Source: a virus
Virus record (IMG/VR): IMGVR_UViG_3300046782_000218
Span: 1 to 64,000 of that record
Strand: one strand, 5' to 3'
DNA length: 64,000 nucleotides
The notes beneath the pieces are model-generated. The model was not told the DNA's origin. It saw nothing but the letters and a program-made list of their open reading frames with translations, and searched no databases. Made by a program: the position numbers and the translations under genes. Within the stretch, counting starts at the first letter, position 1. Each line of letters opens with the position of its first letter. Below, one piece after another: positions 5,047-18,469 of this stretch.

Positions 5047-5145
5047 TTTGGGCCTCCGTCGTCGTCGTTAATACCATTCTATCATGGCAACCTGGGTTGG
5101 CACAAGTTGGCGGTCCGCCCGAACTCTGGCGGACCGCCGGTCAGG

Positions 5146-5373: not shown

Positions 5374-5568
5374 CGGGTGTCCTCTCGTTAGGGGCGGGGT
5401 TCCCACCCTGTAGTACCATTCTACCACGGCACCCCGGGTTGGCACAAGCTGGCGACACGAGCCCACGGACGGCCGTCCCGCGACCTGGGAGGGGCTGGTC
5501 GGTACTCTGGGCCCCCGGGCACGCCGGAGCCCCCCGGTGACGTCACCGGGGGGCTCGGCGGGGGTAGA

Positions 5569-7650: not shown

Positions 7651-7714
7651 ATTCTATCACGTGATACCGGTCATTCACAATGGATTGTGCCAACTCAGCG
7701 CGGGATGATAGAAT
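7651..7714. promoter_or_regulatory. Back-to-back divergent promoter pair
   Basis: Minus: TTGTGA-N18-TAGAAT (7651-7680); plus: TTGTGC-N18-TAGAAT (7685-7714). Confidence 0.75.
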
Positions 7715-7744: not shown

Positions 7745-8017
7745 GTGGCGAAAAAGACGATACTTCCTCCGAGGCTGATCGAAGTTGAGGGGCAGACGCT
7801 CTACCTGTTTCCCTCGGAGAGCTATCCGTATCAGAGTGTCAAACTAACTCTGAACGCGTCCAAGGCGCTGGGGTTCAAGCGTCGAGTGTCGCGGAGCGGG
7901 TGGGTCAGCCTGCATCAGGTGTACAAGAGCGGCGGCATCGAATGGGTCAAGGTGTTGACACTCGCCGACAGTTCCAAGTACCTGGTTCCGGACAGCACCA
8001 TCAAAGCCAAGCCCTGA
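7745..8017 (+). CDS. Basic hypothetical protein; the only convincing plus-strand gene
   Basis: Own promoter 7685-7714; hairpin at 8024-8061 shared with convergent purB. Confidence 0.65.
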   Translation: MAKKTILPPRLIEVEGQTLYLFPSESYPYQSVKLTLNASKALGFKRRVSRSGWVSLHQVYKSGGIEWVKVLTLADSSKYLVPDSTIKAKP

Positions 8018-8023
8018 ACAACG

Positions 8024-8061
8024 CGACGCCCCCCGCCGGAGTCAACAAGGCGGGGGGCGTC
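8024..8061. terminator. Hairpin between convergent genes
   Basis: CGACGCCCCCCGCC ... GGCGGGGGGCGTCG perfect inverted repeat. Confidence 0.7.
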
Positions 8062-8072
8062 GGCGTGTCTGA

Positions 8073-9431
8073 TCATTGGTTAGTGACACCCAGCATTCGA
8101 GACAGCCGGTCGAACACGTGGTCGGTGTTGCCAACGGTCATCCGACATACTTCGTGAAGCTCGACCCAGTTCGGGTTGAACTTGGTGTCGTCTAGGTCTC
8201 CAGTCTTGACGCGGTGACGAGCTTCTCGGGCGACTTCGGCGGCCAGCCTGCTGCCCGCGTCGCAGTTGTCCACAGCTGCCTTGACCACGTGCCAGGCGTC
8301 CATGGGGTCGAGACCTTTCTCAACTAGCCAGGTCCTGGCCGTTGCACTCATGACCTCTGGCTCGTGGTCATACGCGTTGGCCGACATGCGGTCGGCGCGC
8401 ACTTCAAGAGTGCCGATCAGGCCGGTGGCCTTGTTGACCATGGTGTCGAGCAGGATCAACGCGGTAGGCAGCGCGATGCGCTCTACGCTGCTATGACTGA
8501 TGTCGCGTTCGTGATGCAACGCGATGTCTTCCAGCGTGGGGCCGACCTGAGCACGCACCAACCGGGCCAAGCCGGACAGATTCTCGCTAACGATCGGGTT
8601 GCGCTTGTGCGGCATGGCCGATGATCCTTGACGACGATCGGCCCCACCTTCGACCAGTTCGCCGACCTCAGTTCGCATTGACAGACGGACCTCCATGGCC
8701 AGCGACTCGATGACCGCTGCAGCCTGCGCGCAGGCGTACACCAAGTGCGCGATGGAATCGCGGAACACTACCTGCGTGGCCGTTATCGGAGCACTGACCG
8801 AAGGTCCGAGCAACAAATGCGCGAACTTGGCCTCGTCATCGTGGCTGATCCGCTTGTAGTCGCCAACCGGGCCGGACAGTTTGGGGGTAACGGCTTCGGC
8901 ACCGGCTCGTCGAAGTAGGCTGTGAGCCCGCACCATGGCAAACGTGACGTCGGCGACCTTGTACCCCCAGGTGGTAACCTCGGCAGCTTGTCCGTGCGTC
9001 CGGCCGATGCGAAGCGTGTTGCGGTGTTCGAGGGCGTGACCCGCAAGTGCCCGTACCAGTTTGTCCATCCGGCGGTCGATGACGGTCCACGAGTTGGCTA
9101 TGGCCAACGACATAGCCGAATCGACCAGGTCCGAGCTGGTCATGTTCCGGTGAACCCACCCATGAGCCACGAGGTGCATGTTACGTCGCCACGCGGCCAG
9201 GAACGCCATCACGTCGTGACCCGTCGTGGCCTCTTCCTCGGCTACGGCGTCCGGGGTGGGCACCTGAGCCCGTGCCATGGCTTCCGTGGCTTCGGAGGAG
9301 GCTCCCTGGGCCTTCGCGGCGGCAATCTCCACCCTAGCCCAGTCGCGATACTTGGCCTGTTCCGACCAGATGGCCGCCATCTCGCGGCCAAGATACCGCT
9401 TGGGCACCGGAATTTGGTCGAGCGTGTTCAT
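8073..9431 (-). CDS. purB: Adenylosuccinate lyase (fumarase/ASL superfamily)
   Basis: RY..EM..IWS, T.HDVMAF, VH..MTSSD, GRTHGQAAE.TTWG, GSSAMPHKRNP signature, LHHERDISHSSVER. Confidence 0.95.
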   Translation of the reverse strand: MNTLDQIPVPKRYLGREMAAIWSEQAKYRDWARVEIAAAKAQGASSEATEAMARAQVPTPDAVAEEEATTGHDVMAFLAAWRRNMHLVAHGWVHRNMTSSDLVDSAMSLAIANSWTVIDRRMDKLVRALAGHALEHRNTLRIGRTHGQAAEVTTWGYKVADVTFAMVRAHSLLRRAGAEAVTPKLSGPVGDYKRISHDDEAKFAHLLLGPSVSAPITATQVVFRDSIAHLVYACAQAAAVIESLAMEVRLSMRTEVGELVEGGADRRQGSSAMPHKRNPIVSENLSGLARLVRAQVGPTLEDIALHHERDISHSSVERIALPTALILLDTMVNKATGLIGTLEVRADRMSANAYDHEPEVMSATARTWLVEKGLDPMDAWHVVKAAVDNCDAGSRLAAEVAREARHRVKTGDLDDTKFNPNWVELHEVCRMTVGNTDHVFDRLSRMLGVTNQ

Positions 9432-9885
9432 TGCTGTCCTGTCTTGTCGTCAGCTTCGGTATTGCCGGTTTGCAGGTACTGCACCGTGTCCTCTCGGACC
9501 TGTTGGGACGGCTCGCTGTTGTCAAGCTGAGCACACGCCCACTGTGACGCCGCAAACTCAAGCGCGGTAGCTTCCTTGACCACGTCAGCCCTCCTGTGTC
9601 AGATATTGCCGGATGTCTGCCAGGTCGGCAGCGGCCTGCTCAAGCTCCGCTGCCGTCTGGTCGGCCTGCTGGCTGAACTCGTCCTCGGTCACGCGTTGCC
9701 CAGGTCGTACCACAGGGTGTGGGCGGCTTCCCTGGCGTCGTCGATGGCCTTACGGAGGTTGTCCCGTTGCGTGGTCATCTCCTCCAGGTCGCTGCGGAGC
9801 TGGTCCCGCTCGTTCTCCAGGTCGGAGACGTCCCCCCGCAGGTCCCCGATGATGGTGTTGGGGTCCTCTTCCGAGTAGCTGGCCA

Positions 9886-10224
9886 TCAGAAACTCACTCC
9901 CATCAGGAAGAACTTGCCGCTGACGCTCTGGTAGATCTTGACCGGGACGCCGTCCACGAACACCTGGTCCGCCGAGGAGGAGCCCACACGGTCCGTGATG
10001 TCGAAAGTGTCGCTGAGGTCCGACAGCCACAAGACCTCGGTGTAGTTCTCCCCGGAGTAGTCGCACTTGTTGACGGCCAGCTCGATGTCCCCGGCAGCTT
10101 CCTGGATCTTCTCCAGGGCCGCTATCAGGTCGCCGATCCTGGCCGCACGTTCCGACTTGTGCGGCCAGACGTTCGTCTCGGGGTCGATGGAATCCTTGTC
10201 GCGCCAGCGACGCTCTGTGGCCAC
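9886..10224 (-). CDS. Hypothetical protein, first gene of the operon ending in purB
   Basis: AGGAGG RBS; promoter TTGTAC-N18-TAGAAT at 10278-10307. Confidence 0.6.
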   Translation of the reverse strand: MATERRWRDKDSIDPETNVWPHKSERAARIGDLIAALEKIQEAAGDIELAVNKCDYSGENYTEVLWLSDLSDTFDITDRVGSSSADQVFVDGVPVKIYQSVSGKFFLMGVSF

Positions 10225-10312
10225 TGCTGCCTCCTAAGCTTAGGGGACCGTCCGGGCTGGACGGTCCCCGTACTACCATTCTACCATGGGGCGTGTAGCT
10301 GGTACAAGCTTC

Positions 10313-11236
10313 CTAGCGTCCGGTGGACCCGAACCCGTTGGAGCCCCTGACCTTGTCCCGGGTGTTGCCCCACTTGGCGTTGAAGCCGAGGGCAGCGGTC
10401 GGGAGGAGGATGATCTGCGCGACCCGCTCACCAGCCGCCACCGTGACCGGCTCGGTGCTGAGGTTCTGGCAGCCCGCGAACAGGACCCCGGTGTAGCCGT
10501 TGTCGATGATCCCGGTGGACACGAGGAGCTTCCTCGCGCGGAGCGTGGAAGACCGGCCGGTGATCATGCCCCACAGGCCGTCCGGGAGGTCCACGGCCAC
10601 CCCCGTGGGGACGTCCACGAACTCACCCGGCTGGATGGTGGTGTCCTCCAGAGTGTACAGGTCGTAGCCCGCGTCGTCGTCGTGCCCCCGGGTCGGCAGC
10701 TTCGAGTTCACGTTGTACGCCTGGAAGATCAGGTCCCACGAGGGCTTGCTCTCGATGGAGGGAACCCGGCGGACGGACTTCTGCAGCTCGCCCATCAGTT
10801 CCGCTCGGCGCTGCAGCCAGTCGGCGACGTCGTACCGAGCGTTGGACGTCTCGGGGCTGACTACCAGTACGTTGGCATCACCGGCCCACCCGCTGATGGC
10901 CCAACTGTTGTTGGTCTCGTCGGTGGCGATCACCACGGGGGTGCAGTTGTTGCGGGCACGCTCGACCTCGGCCGGAACCCCGTAGGTCACCACGCCAGAG
11001 GGCAGGTACGCAAACAGCGCGTGGGCAGCGTCGAGCGCGAACTCGTTGATCTCGCTGATGAACCCGGCAGGGTCACCCTGACCCGGGATGAAGGCGCCGC
11101 CAGGCAGGTAGGTCGACCAGCCGCTCTGGCTCATGGCCTGCTGCAGCTCGCACAGGAACTGAACGTGCTTGTGGTTAGGCTCCGTACCGTAGTCGAGCGG
11201 CTGGGCCCAGTACAGGAGCTTGCTCGGGCTATTCAT
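10313..11236 (-). CDS. N-deoxyribosyltransferase/NMP-glycosidase-like domain fused to a trimeric dUTPase-family domain (DutZ-like)
   Basis: C-terminal dUTPase motifs DAGYDL, GRSS, GIIDNGYTG, ERVAQ, RGSNGFGSTG; N-terminal LYWAQP..TYLP..INEFALDAA..TYGVPAEVERA...PVV resembles the NDT/Rcl fold. Confidence 0.8.
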   Translation of the reverse strand: MNSPSKLLYWAQPLDYGTEPNHKHVQFLCELQQAMSQSGWSTYLPGGAFIPGQGDPAGFISEINEFALDAAHALFAYLPSGVVTYGVPAEVERARNNCTPVVIATDETNNSWAISGWAGDANVLVVSPETSNARYDVADWLQRRAELMGELQKSVRRVPSIESKPSWDLIFQAYNVNSKLPTRGHDDDAGYDLYTLEDTTIQPGEFVDVPTGVAVDLPDGLWGMITGRSSTLRARKLLVSTGIIDNGYTGVLFAGCQNLSTEPVTVAAGERVAQIILLPTAALGFNAKWGNTRDKVRGSNGFGSTGR

Positions 11237-11509: not shown

Positions 11510-12037
11510 TCACGGCCACTGCCCGTACTGCCGGATGAATTGGGCCATGGCCGCGTAAATCATCAGGTCACGAAGCGTGTCAACACTGGGCGCGACTCCC
11601 CGGATCATGGCGTCGGCCACGCGCTGCATCTTTCCGTATGCATAGACGAAGCAGCCGAGTTCGAGCGCTTCGGCCGGTTCGACCTCGCGCCCCTGGCCTC
11701 GGGCGTACAACCTGCCCATGGCCGCCAGCGAATTGGAGCCGTACTCCCTGGCCTTGGCCGCGATGGTGGGAGCCTCGGTGGCTACCAGCTTGGTCCACCA
11801 CTCGTCGAACTCCACGGGGCTGATGCCCAGTTCCCGCCGTAGTTCCGCCTCGGTCAGGGCTTCCGGCACTCCCACCCTGAGAGGGTTAACCATCGTTCTG
11901 TCCAGCATCTCTTGGAGCTTGGCCCGGTTGTCCTCCGCCGGACGGGGGCCGGGACCTCCGCAGGACGGGCAGTTGGGGACTCCGAACACCGGCTCGGTCG
12001 GGTGTCTCGGGTCCGTGCATTTGATGCGTTCGGTCAT
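11510..12037 (-). CDS. DUF1599/Nmad1 all-alpha NTP pyrophosphatase-like protein (putative MazZ role)
   Basis: KAREYG ... GKMQR ... DTLRDLMIYA pattern; directly downstream of purZ. Confidence 0.7.
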   Translation of the reverse strand: MTERIKCTDPRHPTEPVFGVPNCPSCGGPGPRPAEDNRAKLQEMLDRTMVNPLRVGVPEALTEAELRRELGISPVEFDEWWTKLVATEAPTIAAKAREYGSNSLAAMGRLYARGQGREVEPAEALELGCFVYAYGKMQRVADAMIRGVAPSVDTLRDLMIYAAMAQFIRQYGQWP

Positions 12038-12049
12038 GTTGCCATGCTC

Positions 12050-13153
12050 CTATCGGAGGAAGATGCCAGTGGCCGGACCGGTGCCCACGAAGTTGACGTG
12101 GGTGCCGACGTTGGCCTGAGTGATGCCGACGAGGGACGCCAGCTGACGCGCCGTGTCGTTGTCTACCCGACTGGCGTCGGAAACGCCTGCCAGCTTCGGA
12201 ATCAGCGTGTCGACCATGGTGAGAGCCAGCTTGACGCCGATGCCGCCGTTGTCCTCGACGGCGTTGCACACCATCTCGTTGTCCCACTCGCCGACGCGGC
12301 GAACCTTGTTGGTGACCGTGGTGCGCTCCTCCGGCAGGCCCAGCTCTTCCCAGGTGGTCTCACCCTTGAGGGGACCGGAATTACCGGCCACGCGGATCGG
12401 CCGGACACGAGCCGCCAGCCACACCTGGAGCTGGTCGACCGAGTCGTGCCAGGGGCTGAGTCCCGCCATGGCCAGGAAGTCGATGGCCCGGCAGTCGGAC
12501 GAGGTGCACTGCGGGTACATCCCGGCGTGCGTTCCGAGTCCGTAACCCTGCGTCCCCTCGATCAGGACGGAGTAACCCTGTCGGAGCTGGCCGTACATCC
12601 ACGGGGCGGAGTCGAAGTCGCCGCCGAACAGCTCGGCCTTGCGCCACACCCGGTCGGCACGAGCGGCGCCGATGCCCTTCGCCGTCGAGCCCAGTCGCTT
12701 GACCAGGTCGGATTGCTGCTCGTCGAAGATGTGGTGGGGCTTGAGCAGTGTCGCCGATCGGTCCACGGACAGCCGACTCGACACGTCGTATCCCGCGCGG
12801 TCGAGGGCGTCCTTCTCGGCGTCGAGCACGGCCAGGTCGACCTCGGATCCGGCCGCGATCACCAGATGCGCGTTACGGTTGCTGACCGCTGCGACCGGCA
12901 CGGACCGCAGCTTCCACAGGTGCGCCGTACCGTCGGGGATGGCGACGCCGTCCAGGTTGGTCATGACCACGTGATTGGTCTCGTCCGGCTTGCACCCCGG
13001 AGGGCACTTGCCCACTACGGTGTGACCCGCGTTCGGTCCGGCCACGCGGACGGCCACCAGGTGGGCCTCCCGCTGCGACAGCTGGTCAGCAACAGAACCC
13101 TTTCCCTCGCTTCCCAGTTGACCGCCAGCCACTACGATGAGCTTTCCGCTCAT
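12050..13153 (-). CDS. purZ: PurZ (PurZ0-type) N6-succino-2-amino-deoxyadenylate synthase, a PurA paralog
   Basis: GGQLGSEGKG (Ser where PurA has catalytic Asp, GDEGKG), GPNAGHT, GSTAKGIG, IEGTQG, YPQCTS, RVAGNSG, ERTTVTNKVRRV, LTMVD; short archaeal-type length (367 aa). Confidence 0.88.
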   Translation of the reverse strand: MSGKLIVVAGGQLGSEGKGSVADQLSQREAHLVAVRVAGPNAGHTVVGKCPPGCKPDETNHVVMTNLDGVAIPDGTAHLWKLRSVPVAAVSNRNAHLVIAAGSEVDLAVLDAEKDALDRAGYDVSSRLSVDRSATLLKPHHIFDEQQSDLVKRLGSTAKGIGAARADRVWRKAELFGGDFDSAPWMYGQLRQGYSVLIEGTQGYGLGTHAGMYPQCTSSDCRAIDFLAMAGLSPWHDSVDQLQVWLAARVRPIRVAGNSGPLKGETTWEELGLPEERTTVTNKVRRVGEWDNEMVCNAVEDNGGIGVKLALTMVDTLIPKLAGVSDASRVDNDTARQLASLVGITQANVGTHVNFVGTGPATGIFLR

Positions 13154-15079: not shown

Positions 15080-17391
15080 TCAGTGCTTGTCCCTCCAGCG
15101 ATCCGGGGAAATCCCCCAGGTCATCGTGCGGCCTCTGACGTTGAAGTATTTCTGGAACTCACGCTCACCGATGGCTGACACTTGTTCAGCTTCCTTGCGC
15201 CCTGCCTCGTCGGCTGTGTGCCTAGTCACCAGGCTGTCGTGTATCTGCAGCAACAGAACGCCAGGCATCTCGCGTTCAACAGCCAGCATCCATTTAACCA
15301 TCCCCCTCGCCAAATTACCTTGAATCACCTGGTTTACCGCGCTGTTGGTCTTCTCGCTGGGGCTGTACCAGCGTCGCCAGCCATCCAGCATGGTCAGATA
15401 CCCACACCCGCCCTGCCAGCGGGTGACCTTCTGGGTTGCCTGGTTGGTCAGACGCCGGAACTCAGGGTATTCGGTGAAGAAACTCTCCATTGCGTCCTTG
15501 GTGGCCTGCATCGAAATCGGTACGCCGGATGCGGCCTCGATCTGTTCCATCAGTGCCTTGACGCCACCGCCGTACAGGATGCCGAACGTGCCTCGCTTGG
15601 CTGCGTTACGCAGGTCGTAGAATTGCGGGTGGTCGGGGTCGACGCCGAACAACGCTTTGGCGTTCATCGCGTGCAGATCGGCCCCGGAGTCGAGGGCGTC
15701 CCAGAGCTTGGTACTGCCCGCGATTACGGTAACCACACGCATTTCGCCGGTAGCGAGGTCGTGCTCGTACAGGTCGTACCCGGGCTCATCTCCGATGATG
15801 CTCCGGATAGGCTCCGTGTCTTCCGGGATGAGTCGTCCGTGCGGGATGGCCTGGGCCTGCCAGCGGCCCACCGCGAGCCTCCCAGATACCGTCCCGCCCT
15901 TTCCGTCGCTGGCCCGGTCGAAATCGCCCTTGGTCTGCTTGTATCGAGTCCGGATACGACCATCCTTGCCGGTGCGCTTGGCCCAACCGGTATACCACTT
16001 GGAGTCGGAATTCCGGTTCTTGGTCCAGGCCATGAACTCCTGAGCCCACGGTCGCCCTTCGCTGACCAGTTTTCGCAGCTCGGTCAGGTCCAATTGAGGC
16101 TGTCGGGTCTTCTCGGTCCGGCTGGTCGGCTCCAGCCCCATGCCGTTCTTCCCGCCACATTCCGGGCACGACTTCTCGCACACCGTGGGGAACGTCAGAT
16201 CTTCCGCCCACGGGTCACCGCCACCGGGTGCAGGAACCTGCACATCCGCAGACCGGCTGCACGTCGGGCCGTAGTAGAACCGTTTGGCCTGCGCGATCTT
16301 GGAGGGATCGAACGGCATCACAGCTGCGATCTTGCGGTTGCGGACGCGAAGCTTCGCACCCTCGGCCAGCGACCGATCTACCGCGTAGTAGACGCCTCGA
16401 CGCTCCATGCGGTAGAGCGTGGTCCGAAGCTCCATCTCGTCCTTGACCAGATCCCAGAACTTGGGCAGTACCTCGCCGTTGTCAGCGCACGCCAGCTGAT
16501 ATTCCTTGAGACGCGCGGTCAGCTGGGTGTCTTTGGCCGCGTACTTTGACATCGCTCCGGCCCAGACGAGCAGATCGTATCGCTTGGTCATCTGAACGCC
16601 GACCTTGGAAAGCTCGTCTTTCAGTTCCTCGGCCTCGGTGCCCTCGTCTTCACCCCACAGCCGCTTAGCTGTTTTCTTGAGGGCAGCCGGTTCGAGCGGG
16701 TCGATGAGCTGTTTCTGAATGACCAGGGTGCACCAGATGGCGCGACGCCGAGTAGCCGGGTTGACCGGCGGCTCCAACGTAGGTTCCATCATGTTGAGCC
16801 GCTGGGGTTTGTTCAATTCCCAGGTACCCGGCTCACTGTCAGGGTCCCACGCCCCCCAGCCGTCCCAGATTTCGGGGTTGCTCCCTGCACCCGCGCGCAG
16901 ACCGGCTGCGAACATCGGCATATCGTGGATCGAGTTGTGCATGGTCAGGTTGTCGCGTCGGTCGAGCCATGCGATCAACTTCGCGTACTCGGTAGCGGGC
17001 AGGTTGGGTGCCGCGTCCGCCATGGTGATATCGCGGCCGAGGACCTTCGACATAGCGGCCAGGATGCGGTCCTGCTCGGCCTGGTCGATGATGGCGAATT
17101 CGGCATGACCTGTCTCCGGGTCAACGGTCGGCTTGCCCGGCTTGCCGATGAGCGGCCCCTGATCGAACGGCCACGCGAAGTCGAGCAGTTCGTTGGTCTC
17201 GGGGTCGCGGAAGCTGAGCGACACCACCGAAATTCGGGCCTCAGGCTGCGGCGGATTGTTTCCCGATTTGAACGGCTCACCGTCTCGAAAAAGGCCGGAC
17301 GCTAAGAGCCCTCCGTGTCGACGCTAACGTCCCACCCCGAGGGGAGTTCCGGCAGCTCGACGTCACCTACGCGGGTGAATTGGAGAGTCAT
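15080..17391 (-). CDS. Family A DNA polymerase (DpoZ candidate) with 3'-5' exonuclease; as given, interrupted by an 8-nt insertion at 17298-17305
   Basis: ExoI VDTEGS|GL, ExoII MHNSIHD, ExoIII YAAKD, motif A HDLATGEMR, motif B RNAAKRGTFGILYG, motif C QIHDS; the upstream fragment 17391-17306 joins in frame to the 15080-17227 ORF if GACGCTAA is removed. Confidence 0.88.
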
Positions 17392-17920
17392 TGGCATCAC
17401 CTACTTTCGTGTGAGGGCACGCGCCGTAGGCGTGCTTAGCGAAGTTGCAGTTGTGGCACAGAGTTTGGAACCCCTCAGGGTACCCGTTCTTGTTTAGCCA
17501 CCGGTAGGTTACCAGAGATCCGCCGCTAGAAGCTTTACCCCTGATCTCCTCCCGGTGTACGTTACCATCATTGTTTACATGGTCTATGCAGAGAAATTCC
17601 TCATGGCTTTCTCCGCAACAAGCGCACAATAGCCCGTATGCGTCCAACGCTGCCTTGCGGTACCGATAATGACGGTATTTGGCACCTCGGCGCATGTTAG
17701 CTTTTATGGACTCATGCTGCTCGGTGGTCATCTGTGACCTGCGCCACGTGGCTACGTTTTCTCGGTTGCAAACACGGCACACCCAAACCTTGCCGTTGTG
17801 GTACGCGTTCTCCTCGGTGCGAGGGTGTCCTTTCTGGCACTCTTGGTCCGGCGTTACCCCGCAGTAACACGATTTAGCCCGCTGGCCCCGCCAGACGTGC
17901 TCGTGTTGTTCTGTGGTCAT
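17363..17920 (-). CDS. HNH endonuclease with Zn-finger modules
   Basis: CQKGH..EN..CRVC; CACCG..LCIDHV..GFQTLCHNCN; promoter TTGACA-N17-TAAAAT at 17928-17956 implies a near-leaderless start at 17920. Confidence 0.8.
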   Translation of the reverse strand: MTTEQHEHVWRGQRAKSCYCGVTPDQECQKGHPRTEENAYHNGKVWVCRVCNRENVATWRRSQMTTEQHESIKANMRRGAKYRHYRYRKAALDAYGLLCACCGESHEEFLCIDHVNNDGNVHREEIRGKASSGGSLVTYRWLNKNGYPEGFQTLCHNCNFAKHAYGACPHTKVGDANDSPIHPRR

Positions 17921-18469
17921 ACCCCCTATTTTATCATACGGGGGACTCTGTGTCAACTACATGCGTTTAGCCGAAGATCGTCACGAAGATCAGCCCGAGG
18001 ACGGCCACCAGGCCGATCACGGCCAGCCCGAGTACCATGAAGCTGTCGGCCAGCGAGGCCAGCACCTTGGCCACGGCCTGGGCCTGCTGCAGGGCGGAAG
18101 GTCGAGCGGGCTGGTTGATGACGGGCCCAGGAACTCCGGGGCCGGTGCGTATCAGGGTCATTTCATCCACCTATGAATTGGGGGCACTATTCAAGTTGAT
18201 GAATAGCGCCCCCAGTAAAACACGTCAAATAAACCTGACGCAAGTCCTACGGTGTCACCCGAACAGGTGATGCCAGGCCAGCGCGGTGCCGATCGTAAGG
18301 AACCCGATGGATGCCAGCAGCGAGACTGCCAGTACGGCCAGGAACCCGGCAACGTTCTTGACGCCGGTCCAGACCTTGTTGGTGGGGGGATTGAAGGTAG
18401 CGCATCCGCCGCAGCAGGCGCACCTCGGGCTAATCTGGACCAGAGGCTCGGCTACCTCGGTCATGGTGG

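What the first reader, a model, noticed from the sequence alone, without database searches (positions are those of the whole stretch)
8073..9431. Phage-encoded adenylosuccinate lyase, a candidate dedicated dSMP lyase
Seen: a full-length PurB with all catalytic signatures, 0.9 kb from the purZ operon and under a separate promoter (10278-10307). In the Z pathways I know of, this step is done by host PurB. A phage copy suggests specialisation for the 2-amino-2'-deoxy substrate, or a need to bypass a poor or inhibited host enzyme (inference).
Basis: partly seen in the sequence, partly recalled or inferred. Interest (0 to 1): 0.75.

Follow-up and report, generated by a model that had tools for sequence, protein, structure and literature searches.

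The report
Phage's own adenylosuccinate lyase for Z-DNA
A high-GC phage that carries the genes for replacing adenine with 2-aminoadenine (Z) in its DNA also encodes its own intact adenylosuccinate lyase, so it probably does the second step of Z synthesis itself rather than relying on the host as published pathway descriptions say; cultured relatives already carry the same annotated gene.

Summary
The ORF at 8073-9431 (minus strand, 452 aa) is a real, intact PurB-family lyase. Its catalytic and AMP-contact residues are conserved, the fold model is confident, and it lies 881 bp downstream of a PurZ0-type Z cluster in a 99%-complete 89-kb virus record.

It is not a recent host capture: the nearest cellular PurBs are at most 48% identical. 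It belongs to a single phage clade. All 33 PurBs from PurZ-bearing records can be held as one clade, sister to short-type Actinomycetes PurBs. PurB and PurZ distances co-vary across 30 records (Mantel r 0.78). Of 19 near-complete PurZ0-like IMG/VR genomes, 15 carry a PurB.

The clade has lost the Pfam ADSL_C signature, but a helical domain III is still predicted. No ligand-contact residue points to specialisation for the 2-amino-2'-deoxy substrate.

The promoter-like site at 10278-10307 belongs to a five-copy motif family. It heads a five-ORF unit in which purB is last, overlaps the previous ORF's stop (ATGA) and is followed by a strong hairpin.

GenBank already annotates "PurB-like adenylosuccinate lyase" in Hiyaavirus and Ghobesvirus phages. 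This scan has reported the same pairing on other DNA several times. It is a new member of a known kind, and no biochemistry was found in print.

The parts
8073..9431 (-). purB-like gene, 452 aa: phage adenylosuccinate-lyase-family enzyme, the proposed dSMP (N6-succino-2-amino-2'-deoxyadenylate) lyase
   Evidence: ORF. Lyase_1 and TIGR00928 at 289.9 bits. PDB PurB matches at E 4e-62. AF2 model pLDDT 93.5. Foldseek TM 0.86/0.90 to 2pfm. Clade placement.
10278..10307 (-). Promoter-like site TTGTAC-N18-TAGAAT with TG before the -10 element; one of five copies of a window-wide motif
   Evidence: Sequence read. Motif family has 5 matches against 0.04 expected. Not listed by the generic scan. Function not shown.
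10243..10269 (-). Perfect 11-bp stem with a 5-nt loop between the promoter-like site and the first small ORF. It could be a 5' leader hairpin or an end signal for the purZ-dutZ unit.
   Evidence: Sequence. Fold of 10215-10320: -41.8 kcal/mol, z -2.0. Role inferred.
9886..10224 (-). Small ORF A (112 aa, GTG start preceded by AGGAGG); no known family
   Evidence: No Pfam hit. No homologue in relatives' loci.
9689..9886 (-). Small ORF B (about 65 aa). Its ATG overlaps ORF A's stop (TGATG). It is the only plausible part of the listed 196-aa ORF 9689-10279.
   Evidence: The N-terminal two thirds of the 196-aa frame is Arg/Gly/Pro-rich and overlaps ORF A. No homologue.
9585..9713 (-). Small ORF C (42 aa, or 35 aa from a GTG that overlaps ORF B's stop); hypothetical
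9428..9583 (-). Small ORF D (51 aa). Its stop overlaps the purB start codon (ATGA), which implies co-transcription and probably coupled translation with purB.
8026..8060 (-). GC-rich hairpin (12-bp core stem) starting 13 nt after the purB stop, between purB and a convergent plus-strand ORF (7745-8017). Probable bidirectional terminator.
   Evidence: Sequence. Fold -39.4 kcal/mol, z -4.39, 0 of 200 shuffles as stable. Not listed by the T-run-based scan.
10313..11236 (-). 307-aa protein with a C-terminal dUTPase domain (residues 178-306) and a ~170-aa N-terminal extension. This is the DmtZ-DutZ-type fusion layout described for PurZ0 phages.
   Evidence: Pfam dUTPase 7.5e-25. Fusion described in PMC12884076. 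The N-terminal NDT-like fold was not tested here.
11510..12037 (-). 175-aa ORF directly downstream of purZ. It is conserved next to purZ in relatives and has no family match.
   Evidence: No Pfam, NCBIfam or PHROG hit. tblastn hits in 8 of the 10 PurZ-linked loci L002-L009, L044, L045.
12050..13153 (-). purZ (PurZ0-like succino-amino-deoxyadenylate synthase); produces the proposed PurB substrate
   Evidence: NF038379 at 319 bits, cut-off 300. P-loop GGQLGSEGKG has Ser where PurA has Asp.

Best explanation
The gene encodes a catalytically competent adenylosuccinate-lyase-family enzyme that belongs to the phage's Z-genome toolkit. PurZ (12050-13153) condenses dGMP with aspartate to give N6-succino-2-amino-2'-deoxyadenylate (dSMP). 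This PurB then removes fumarate by the usual beta-elimination (Ser of the GSSAMPHKRNP loop as base, His146 as acid) to give dZMP, which kinases raise to dZTP.

The enzyme descends from one old capture of a short-type (about 435-aa) Actinomycetes PurB by an ancestor of PurZ0-type phages, and has been co-inherited with purZ since. It is transcribed as the last gene of its own unit: promoter-like site 10278-10307, four small ORFs, purB, terminator hairpin.

Shown here: gene integrity, family, conserved catalytic residues, clade, co-occurrence and co-variation with PurZ.

Inferred: that dSMP is the substrate, and that the benefit is extra or host-independent lyase capacity.
For: Family and integrity.

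Catalytic and ligand-contact residues are invariant or nearly so across the 109-row phage clade and a 42-row alignment. Within the clade, pairwise identity to the window protein is only 38-57%, so this conservation indicates purifying selection.

Z context in the window:
- PurZ is above its curated cut-off and has a Ser P-loop.
- A dUTPase-fusion gene and a family A polymerase are present.
- The same layout occurs in Streptomyces phage Galactica.

Clade:
- FastTree, 287 rows: the window, 10 PurZ-linked viral loci, 3 further viral loci and 95 unnamed proteins form one starred set (99) with no cellular row among 90.
- The 3 further loci carry PurZ elsewhere on their contigs at 330-341 bits.
- IQ-TREE quick, 85 rows: 31 of 32 PurZ-linked rows plus the window are together (SH-aLRT 99), sister (100) to 7 Actinomycetes rows.
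- Holding all 33 together gives a tree 51 log-likelihood units better than the free search; p-AU 0.884.

PurZ on the same record: 13 of 14 clade records are above the NF038379 cut-off; the fourteenth scores 283 bits.

Converse: of 50 PurZ0-like IMG/VR records (the 50 of 80 hits with contigs over 10 kb), 31 hold a PurB. Among those at least 90% complete, 15 of 19 do. Eight of the 31 are records I already had.

Co-variation: Mantel Spearman r 0.779 between PurZ and PurB distances over 30 records; 0 of 2000 permutations as high.

Not a recent capture: the best cellular matches are 36-48% identical, and local G+C (0.63) equals the genome's.
Against: - No activity was measured here, and I found none in print.
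- The ligand-contact residues are the same as in housekeeping PurB, so the sequence cannot tell dSMP from adenylosuccinate or SAICAR as the substrate.
- The window protein has Arg at the position of S. aureus Gln259. That residue binds the dicarboxylate-site ligand in that structure; it is Gln in 99% of 178 non-clade rows and 88% of clade rows.
- TIGR00928 scores below its cut-off.
- Pfam ADSL_C is undetectable even at E 10.
- A phage PurB is dispensable for Z genomes. In GenBank phages, 199 records have a PurZ-like match, but only the 5 Streptomyces and 6 Gordonia records show a PurB; no PurB match came from an Arthrobacter, Microbacterium or Vibrio phage (105, 18 and 38 PurZ-like records). 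The 4 Acinetobacter records with a lyase match (155-175 kb, plus one 11.8-kb record) were not cross-checked against the 10 Acinetobacter PurZ-like records.
- 4 of 19 near-complete PurZ0-like IMG/VR genomes lack a PurB.
Confidence: 0.75

Rival explanations
1. General purine auxiliary metabolic gene. The phage PurB boosts the host's ordinary SAICAR and adenylosuccinate steps (IMP/AMP supply for RNA, ATP and GTP) and is not specifically the dSMP lyase.
For: PurB genes occur in many large phages outside this clade, e.g. Microcystis phage MaAM05 and 31 IMG/VR records. The active site is indistinguishable from housekeeping PurB at the known contact residues.
Against: Every clade member with known context sits on a PurZ-bearing record and co-varies with PurZ. 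These phages carry genes of the type shown to destroy dATP (PMC12884076), so extra AMP synthesis is not an obvious need. Even outside the clade, 10 of the 14 viral PurB records that have any PurA-family gene have the PurZ-like Ser P-loop. No other de novo purine gene was found in the window ORFs scanned.
Confidence: 0.12
2. Specialised or insulated enzyme. The clade has shifted towards the 2-amino-2'-deoxy substrate, or escapes a block that the phage or host places on host PurB. The remodelled C-terminal domain III underlies this.
For: Clade-wide loss of the ADSL_C signature. Residues more than 97% conserved in non-clade PurBs are replaced: Trp to His at window position 306, Asp to Thr or other at 323, Arg to Pro at 376, Tyr to Trp at 380, Gln to variable at 384. 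PurB evolves faster than PurZ, with mean p-distance 0.61 against 0.44.
Against: None of the changed positions is among the ligand contacts listed for S. aureus PurB. In that structure the 2'-OH is read only by a main-chain carbonyl, and host PurB is reported to do the step in other Z phages. No inhibitor of host PurB is known or was found here.
Confidence: 0.12
3. Passenger gene: a recently captured host purB with no role in the phage.
For: The closest cellular group is from Actinomycetes, the likely host class of related cultured phages.
Against: It is at most 48% identical to any cellular PurB found. It is a deep, diverse phage-only clade with invariant catalytic residues. Composition equals the genome's. 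It is embedded in a phage transcription unit.
Confidence: 0.01

Closest known systems
'PurB-like adenylosuccinate lyase' of Streptomyces phages Galactica (gp75), Hiyaa (gp76), Keanu and Spocter (genus Hiyaavirus), as annotated in GenBank
   Same: Same clade. 48-50% identity over residues 12-383. Same gene order: PurA-like, a hypothetical gene, dUTPase, small genes, PurB-like. Also lacks a Pfam ADSL_C match.
   Different: Only about half the residues are identical. The gap between the dUTPase gene and purB is 0.9 kb here against 2.8 kb in Galactica. The window's promoter motif is not found in those loci. The window protein has Arg-Gln where the clade has Gln-Arg before the GSS loop.
Gordonia phage Ghobes gp36 'adenylosuccinate lyase' and its Sapo, Archimedes and Frizzle homologues (genus Ghobesvirus)
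   Same: PurZ0-type phages with their own PurB-family gene. They fall in the same PurZ-linked clade in both trees.
   Different: Shorter (about 365 aa). 30-35% identity over 54-62% of the query. Long branches. The gene lies beside the helicase, on the strand opposite to purZ.
Bacterial short-type PurB (B. anthracis 2PFM, S. aureus 2X75, T. maritima 1C3C/1C3U)
   Same: Same fold over the full length (TM 0.83-0.92). Same catalytic and AMP-contact residues.
   Different: 30-33% identity in the structural alignment. The domain III sequence signature ADSL_C is lost. Clade-specific replacements occur at positions conserved in 97-99% of non-clade rows.
The host PurB step of the published Z pathway (PurZ, then bacterial PurB, then kinases)
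   Same: Same proposed chemistry: dSMP to dZMP plus fumarate.
   Different: The papers I could read assign the step to the host enzyme (bioRxiv 10.1101/2025.10.22.683976, passage; PMC12783734, passage). Here the phage supplies a lyase. PMC12884076, which surveys PurZ0 phages, contains neither 'PurB' nor 'lyase' in its main text.
purB genes of large phages outside this clade (e.g. Microcystis phage MaAM05; IMG/VR records of 100-430 kb)
   Same: Phage-encoded short-type PurB, 33-43% identical.
   Different: They group separately, among cellular PurBs. Their PurA-family partners score below the PurZ cut-off, although 10 of 14 have the Ser-type P-loop.

Membership tests
Adenylosuccinate lyase PurB (EC 4.3.2.2), short Bacillus/Thermotoga type | Lyase_1 (fumarase/aspartase superfamily) core domain | tested here: met
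   PF00206, E 6.1e-35, residues 29-292.
Adenylosuccinate lyase PurB (EC 4.3.2.2), short Bacillus/Thermotoga type | Score at or above the curated cut-off of the NCBIfam equivalog TIGR00928 (326.2 bits) | tested here: not met
   289.9 bits, aligned to model positions 3-390 of 436. The shortfall lies in the C-terminal domain.
Adenylosuccinate lyase PurB (EC 4.3.2.2), short Bacillus/Thermotoga type | Catalytic residues: Ser of the GSSxMPxKxN loop, general-acid His (S. aureus His141), His68, Lys268, Glu275 | tested here: met
   S270/S271, H146, H72, K276 and E283 in the window protein. Each is 99-100% conserved in the 109-row clade. Residue roles are taken from PMC2917274.
Adenylosuccinate lyase PurB (EC 4.3.2.2), short Bacillus/Thermotoga type | AMP-contact residues of S. 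aureus PurB: Arg4, Tyr5, Asp69, Ser94, Thr95, Gln212, Gln259, Ser306, Arg310 | tested here: met
   R12, Y13, D73, S99, S100, Q220, S314 and R318 are present. The exception is Gln259, which is Arg267 in the window protein (Gln in 88% of the clade).
Adenylosuccinate lyase PurB (EC 4.3.2.2), short Bacillus/Thermotoga type | C-terminal domain recognised as Pfam ADSL_C (PF10397) | tested here: not met
   No match even at E 10 for the window protein or Galactica's. A sister-group cellular protein scores 4e-19. The listed clade proteins carry PF00206 alone, apart from P0016 and P0070.
Adenylosuccinate lyase PurB (EC 4.3.2.2), short Bacillus/Thermotoga type | Three-domain all-helical fold including domain III | tested here: met
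   AF2 pLDDT 93.5, with helices through residue 446. Foldseek alignment spans 440-452 columns with TM 0.86-0.92 to 2pfm and 1c3u.
Adenylosuccinate lyase PurB (EC 4.3.2.2), short Bacillus/Thermotoga type | Lyase activity on adenylosuccinate and SAICAR (and, for the proposal here, dSMP); active homotetramer | not testable with these tools
   Needs enzyme assays. Oligomer state was not modelled.
PurZ0-type Z-genome gene set (PurZ0 + DutZ, with or without DmtZ, + family A polymerase; PMC12884076) | PurZ above its curated cut-off, with Ser replacing the catalytic Asp of PurA | tested here: met
   NF038379 at 319 bits against a cut-off of 300. P-loop GGQLGSEGKG. The Ser criterion is from PMC12884076 section 24. 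PurZ0 versus PurZ subgroup was judged only by best matches to actinophage PurZ, not by a tree.
PurZ0-type Z-genome gene set (PurZ0 + DutZ, with or without DmtZ, + family A polymerase; PMC12884076) | Dut-like gene, often fused to an N-terminal NDT-like DmtZ domain | tested here: inconclusive
   The dUTPase domain (residues 178-306 of 307 aa) is present, and the length and layout match the fusion described. The N-terminal fold was not tested.
PurZ0-type Z-genome gene set (PurZ0 + DutZ, with or without DmtZ, + family A polymerase; PMC12884076) | 2-aminoadenine actually replaces adenine in virion DNA | not testable with these tools
   Needs nucleoside LC-MS or modification-aware sequencing of the phage.
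Phage 'PurB-like adenylosuccinate lyase' clade (Hiyaavirus/Ghobesvirus type) | Groups with these phage proteins to the exclusion of cellular PurBs | tested here: met
   Starred clades. The one-clade constraint is not rejected and gives the better tree.
Phage 'PurB-like adenylosuccinate lyase' clade (Hiyaavirus/Ghobesvirus type) | A PurZ-type gene on the same genome | tested here: met
   Window. 13 of 14 clade records are above the cut-off.

The most novel reading that the evidence does not exclude
The PurZ-linked phage PurBs are a dedicated 'Z-lyase' lineage. After one capture from an actinobacterium they were retuned, through the rewritten domain III and the Trp-to-His and Asp-to-Thr changes near the HERD/SHSS segment. 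The retuned enzymes favour dSMP, or work when host purine (adenine) synthesis is shut down. PurZ0 phages that carry one would therefore be independent of, and perhaps hostile to, the host PurB step.
Probability: 0.18. Interest if true: 0.7.

Novelty: new member of a known kind. Interest (0 to 1): 0.42.

Why it matters
Papers on 2-aminoadenine (Z) genomes that I could read say the lyase step is done by the host. A 2026 survey of PurZ0 phages does not mention a phage lyase in its main text.

The data here point the other way. A phage-owned PurB is the rule rather than the exception among near-complete PurZ0-like environmental genomes: 15 of 19 carry one. It has one origin and travels with PurZ.

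This gives a directly testable addition to the pathway, using cultured phages (Hiyaa, Galactica, Ghobes). It also gives a candidate part for building host-independent dZTP synthesis.

For this window alone the result is modest. The same gene is already annotated in relatives, and this scan has noted the pairing on other DNA.

Tried and rejected
Generic promoter/terminator scan. It listed neither 10278-10307 nor the hairpin after purB. I replaced it with a motif-family count and folds. A shorter -10 word search gave 9 matches against 2.7 expected and adds only weak further candidates. The promoter motif is absent from the relatives' loci L002-L009, so its conservation could not be used.

The 196-aa ORF 9689-10279 as a gene: rejected. 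It has no family and no homologue. Its first two thirds overlap a better-signalled 112-aa ORF. The four small ORFs have no homologues either, so they remain hypothetical.

Metagenome scan with the PurB protein. All 80 loci kept looked cellular: 14 had only weak PurA-type matches to PurZ (49-75 bits), and none had a PurZ-level match. It added no clade members.

Single-protein PurZ scan of viral contigs. It found one locus, so I replaced it with an alignment query.

NF038379's cut-off as a clean negative control: rejected. 0 of 31 non-clade viral PurB records pass it. But of the 14 that have any PurA-family match, 10 have Ser and 3 have Asp at the P-loop, and 1 could not be read. 'Non-clade' therefore does not mean 'no PurZ-like enzyme'.

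Host-type hypothesis (phages carry PurB where the host has only the long mycobacterial-type PurB). In 151 genomes of the class of G001, 50 have a short-type match (E 1e-73 or better). Most of the rest have only weak matches at 28-36% identity over residues 10-335.

My recollection that PDB 5VKW is mycobacterial was wrong: it is Candida albicans. The mycobacterial entries are 4NLE, 9OO0 and 9OP0.

PurZ-PurB complex prediction returned no verdict. It counts neither for nor against binding.

Literature. Searches, and in-paper finds, gave no paper that discusses a phage-encoded PurB in Z phages. The 2021 Science papers and Tong et al. 2023 (Nature Microbiology) are not held (for the latter). I know them only from memory, so prior mention there cannot be excluded.
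Full report
**Where the window lies.** The window is the first 64 kb of an 89,118-bp IMG/VR virus record estimated 99% complete. G+C is 0.59-0.66 throughout and 0.63 around the finding.

**Observation: the gene.**
- The ORF 8073-9431 on the minus strand (452 aa, ATG) is as described.
- It matches Pfam Lyase_1 (6e-35).
- Among NCBIfam models it matches purB TIGR00928 far best: 289.9 bits, against 167 for the next model, another adenylosuccinate-lyase subfamily, and 159 for the best other enzyme. That score is still below the curated cut-off of 326.2.
- phmmer against the PDB finds short-type PurBs first: B. anthracis 2PFM 4e-62, S. aureus 2X75, T. maritima 1C3U.
- An AlphaFold2 model built on a 42-row alignment has mean pLDDT 93.5 and pTM 0.91, with helices to residue 446.
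- Foldseek aligns it over 440-452 columns to 2PFM and 1C3U (TM 0.86-0.92). Mycobacterial PurBs (4NLE, 9OO0) are much more distant, at 22-24% identity.

**Observation: the active site.** I read passages of PMC2917274, the S. aureus PurB-AMP structure.
- It lists Arg4, Tyr5, Asn276, Ser306 and Arg310 on the phosphate.
- The Arg67 main-chain carbonyl contacts the 2'-OH. Asp69 and Arg4 contact the 3'-OH.
- Thr95, His141 and Gln212 contact the base. Ser94 and Gln259 contact the dicarboxylate site.
- Ser262 is the likely base and His141 the acid.

By the alignment these correspond to R12, Y13, N284, S314, R318, G71, D73, S100, H146, Q220, S99, R267 and S270. All side-chain contacts are present except Gln259, which is Arg here; Asn276 and Arg326 vary in cellular PurBs too. 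The neighbouring Lys is Gln, a local swap in the mobile loop that is mostly peculiar to this protein (Gln in 88% of clade rows).

**Context.**
- purZ is 12050-13153 (NF038379 at 319 bits, cut-off 300). Its P-loop is GGQLGSEGKG, with Ser where PurA has Asp. PMC12884076 section 24 gives that Ser as universal in phage PurZ.
- Downstream on the same strand lie a 175-aa ORF with no family match and a 307-aa protein with a C-terminal dUTPase domain and a ~170-aa N-terminal extension. That is the DmtZ-DutZ fusion layout described for PurZ0 phages in PMC12884076.
- Then comes the 881-bp stretch, then purB.
- A family A polymerase and a helicase lie upstream of purZ.

**Transcription unit.**
The generic scan missed it.
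- TTGT-N19-21-TAGAAT occurs five times in the window against 0.04 expected. Each copy has TG before the -10 element. The other copies are at 5076-5105, 5418-5447 and 7651-7680 (minus strand) and 7685-7714 (plus strand).
- An 11-bp hairpin follows the site.
- Next come four small ORFs linked by TGATG, GTGA and ATGA overlaps. The last overlap is with the purB start codon.
- The listed 196-aa ORF is probably an artefact.
- Thirteen nucleotides after the purB stop there is a 12-bp GC hairpin (-39.4 kcal/mol, z -4.4). It faces a convergent plus-strand ORF.
- So purB is the last gene of its own unit rather than having a private promoter.

**Relatives.**
- In GenBank phages the best tblastn matches (48-50% identity) are the annotated 'PurB-like adenylosuccinate lyase' genes of five Streptomyces Hiyaavirus records. 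Six Gordonia Ghobesvirus records match at 30-35%.
- Galactica has the same gene order as the window. Sapo has purZ and purB on opposite strands.
- PurZ-like matches occur in 199 phage records: Arthrobacter 105, Vibrio 38, Microbacterium 18, Acinetobacter 10, Gordonia 6, Streptomyces 5.
- Of those groups, only the Gordonia and Streptomyces counts reappear in the PurB search, apart from 4 large Acinetobacter records that I did not cross-check.
- I did not match the two lists record by record.

**Phylogeny.**
- *Sampling.* The 5.8-billion-protein search lists the best 120 of 7,897 matches. About 70 of these (identity 41-57%) carry Lyase_1 only and come from contigs of up to 84 kb. The 435-aa cellular PurBs with ADSL_C begin at about 45% identity. 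The representative search found 749 proteins at E 1e-30 or better. Genome scans gave cellular relatives at 34-46% and up to 48%.
- *FastTree (287 rows).* One starred set (99) of 109 rows holds the window, all 10 PurZ-linked viral loci, 3 other viral loci and 95 unnamed proteins. It holds none of the 90 cellular rows and none of the 30 other viral rows. The 3 other loci have PurZ at 330-341 bits elsewhere on their contigs.
- *IQ-TREE quick, LG+G4 (85 rows).* 31 of 32 PurZ-linked rows plus the window group together (SH-aLRT 99), sister (100) to seven Actinomycetes rows (Nocardiopsaceae and Mycobacteriales MAGs, and unnamed handles). The stray row is L044, with a very long branch.
- *One-clade test.* Forcing all 33 together gave a tree 51 log-likelihood units better than the free search; p-AU 0.884.
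- *Limits.* The root is not inferred. 'Capture from an actinobacterium' rests on the sister relation and is an inference.

**Co-occurrence.**
- Clade records with PurZ above the cut-off: 13 of 14. L044's record scores 283.
- Non-clade viral PurB records above the cut-off: 0 of 31.
- This control is not clean. Ten have Ser, three have Asp, and one could not be read.
- Phage PurB therefore tends to accompany PurZ-like enzymes in at least two separate PurB lineages.
- Converse test: an alignment of 11 PurZ sequences found 369 relatives in IMG/VR, of which the tool kept the best 80. I searched the 50 with contigs over 10 kb. Of these, 31 hold a PurB (8 of them records I already had). Among records at least 90% complete, 15 of 19 do.
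- Across 30 records with both genes, PurZ and PurB distances correlate (Mantel Spearman 0.779; 0 of 2000 permutations as high). PurB is the faster-evolving of the two, with mean p-distance 0.61 against 0.44.
- Shared phage ancestry alone would give such a correlation. It argues for co-inheritance, not for functional coupling as such.

**What distinguishes the clade.**
- Catalytic and contact residues are 94-100% conserved.
- Positions conserved in 97-99% of the 178 non-clade rows are replaced in the clade: Trp to His at window 306 (63% His), Asp315-equivalent to Thr or other at 323, Arg to Pro at 376, Tyr to Trp at 380, and Gln and Ala to variable residues at 384 and 387. Pro to Val or Leu at 152 is a further replacement, at a position 92% Pro in non-clade rows.
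- Pfam ADSL_C is undetectable in the window protein and in Galactica's even at E 10. A sister-group protein scores 4e-19.
- None of these positions is among the published ligand contacts.
- I therefore see a remodelled domain III of unknown meaning, not evidence of a substrate shift.

**Mechanism and verdict.**
- Most likely (0.75): the protein is the phage's own lyase for the PurZ product, giving host-independent or additional flux to dZMP.
- The specialised-enzyme reading and the general purine-gene reading are each kept at about 0.12.
- A passenger gene is excluded for practical purposes.

**Novelty.**
- The gene type is annotated in cultured phages.
- This scan has reported PurZ-linked phage PurBs on other genomes.
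- Within the library I could search I found no paper that discusses it (finds).
- The papers I read assign the step to the host.
- Key subscription papers and all supplements were not available to me.
- I class it as a new member of a known kind, of moderate interest.

Noticed in passing
window 5076-5105(-), 5418-5447(-), 7651-7680(-), 7685-7714(+), 10278-10307(-): A five-copy promoter-like motif, TTGT(G/A)C...TGnTAGAAT, found 5 times against 0.04 expected. The pair at 7651-7714 is divergent. The motif is absent from the related loci L002-L009.
   Followed up: partly
window 11510-12037(-): A 175-aa ORF directly after purZ has no Pfam, NCBIfam or PHROG match. It is conserved next to purZ in 8 of the 10 PurZ-linked loci L002-L009, L044, L045 (38-60% identity). 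It is a candidate uncharacterised Z-cluster gene.
   Followed up: partly
loci L012/L143, L022, L034, L142, L335-L340 (records G159, G176, G187, G158, G192, G188, G168, G178, G175, G190): PurA-family genes on large phage records that also carry PurB have Ser instead of Asp in the P-loop, yet score only 170-246 bits on the PurZ model (cut-off 300). They may be divergent PurZ-like enzymes that the curated model misses.
   Followed up: partly
L341 (G172:C1:99800-101000): The PurA-family match on this 193-kb phage record lies in an 821-aa open frame. Just before the conserved region resumes, the sequence ends in a His-Asn-Thr motif typical of intein C-termini. This may be an intein inside a PurZ/PurA-like gene.
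   Followed up: no
window 17363-17956(-): A 197-aa ORF between the polymerase and helicase genes matches PHROG HNH-endonuclease families (3.7e-07).
   Followed up: no
genomes of the class of G001: Two PurB types split this actinobacterial class. 50 of 151 genomes have a short-type match (43-48% identical to the phage protein). Most others have only a distant long-type match. Some genomes have both.
   Followed up: partly
window 7745-8017(+): A 90-aa plus-strand ORF converges on purB and has its own copy of the promoter motif. It is the only clear plus-strand gene in this minus-strand block.
   Followed up: no
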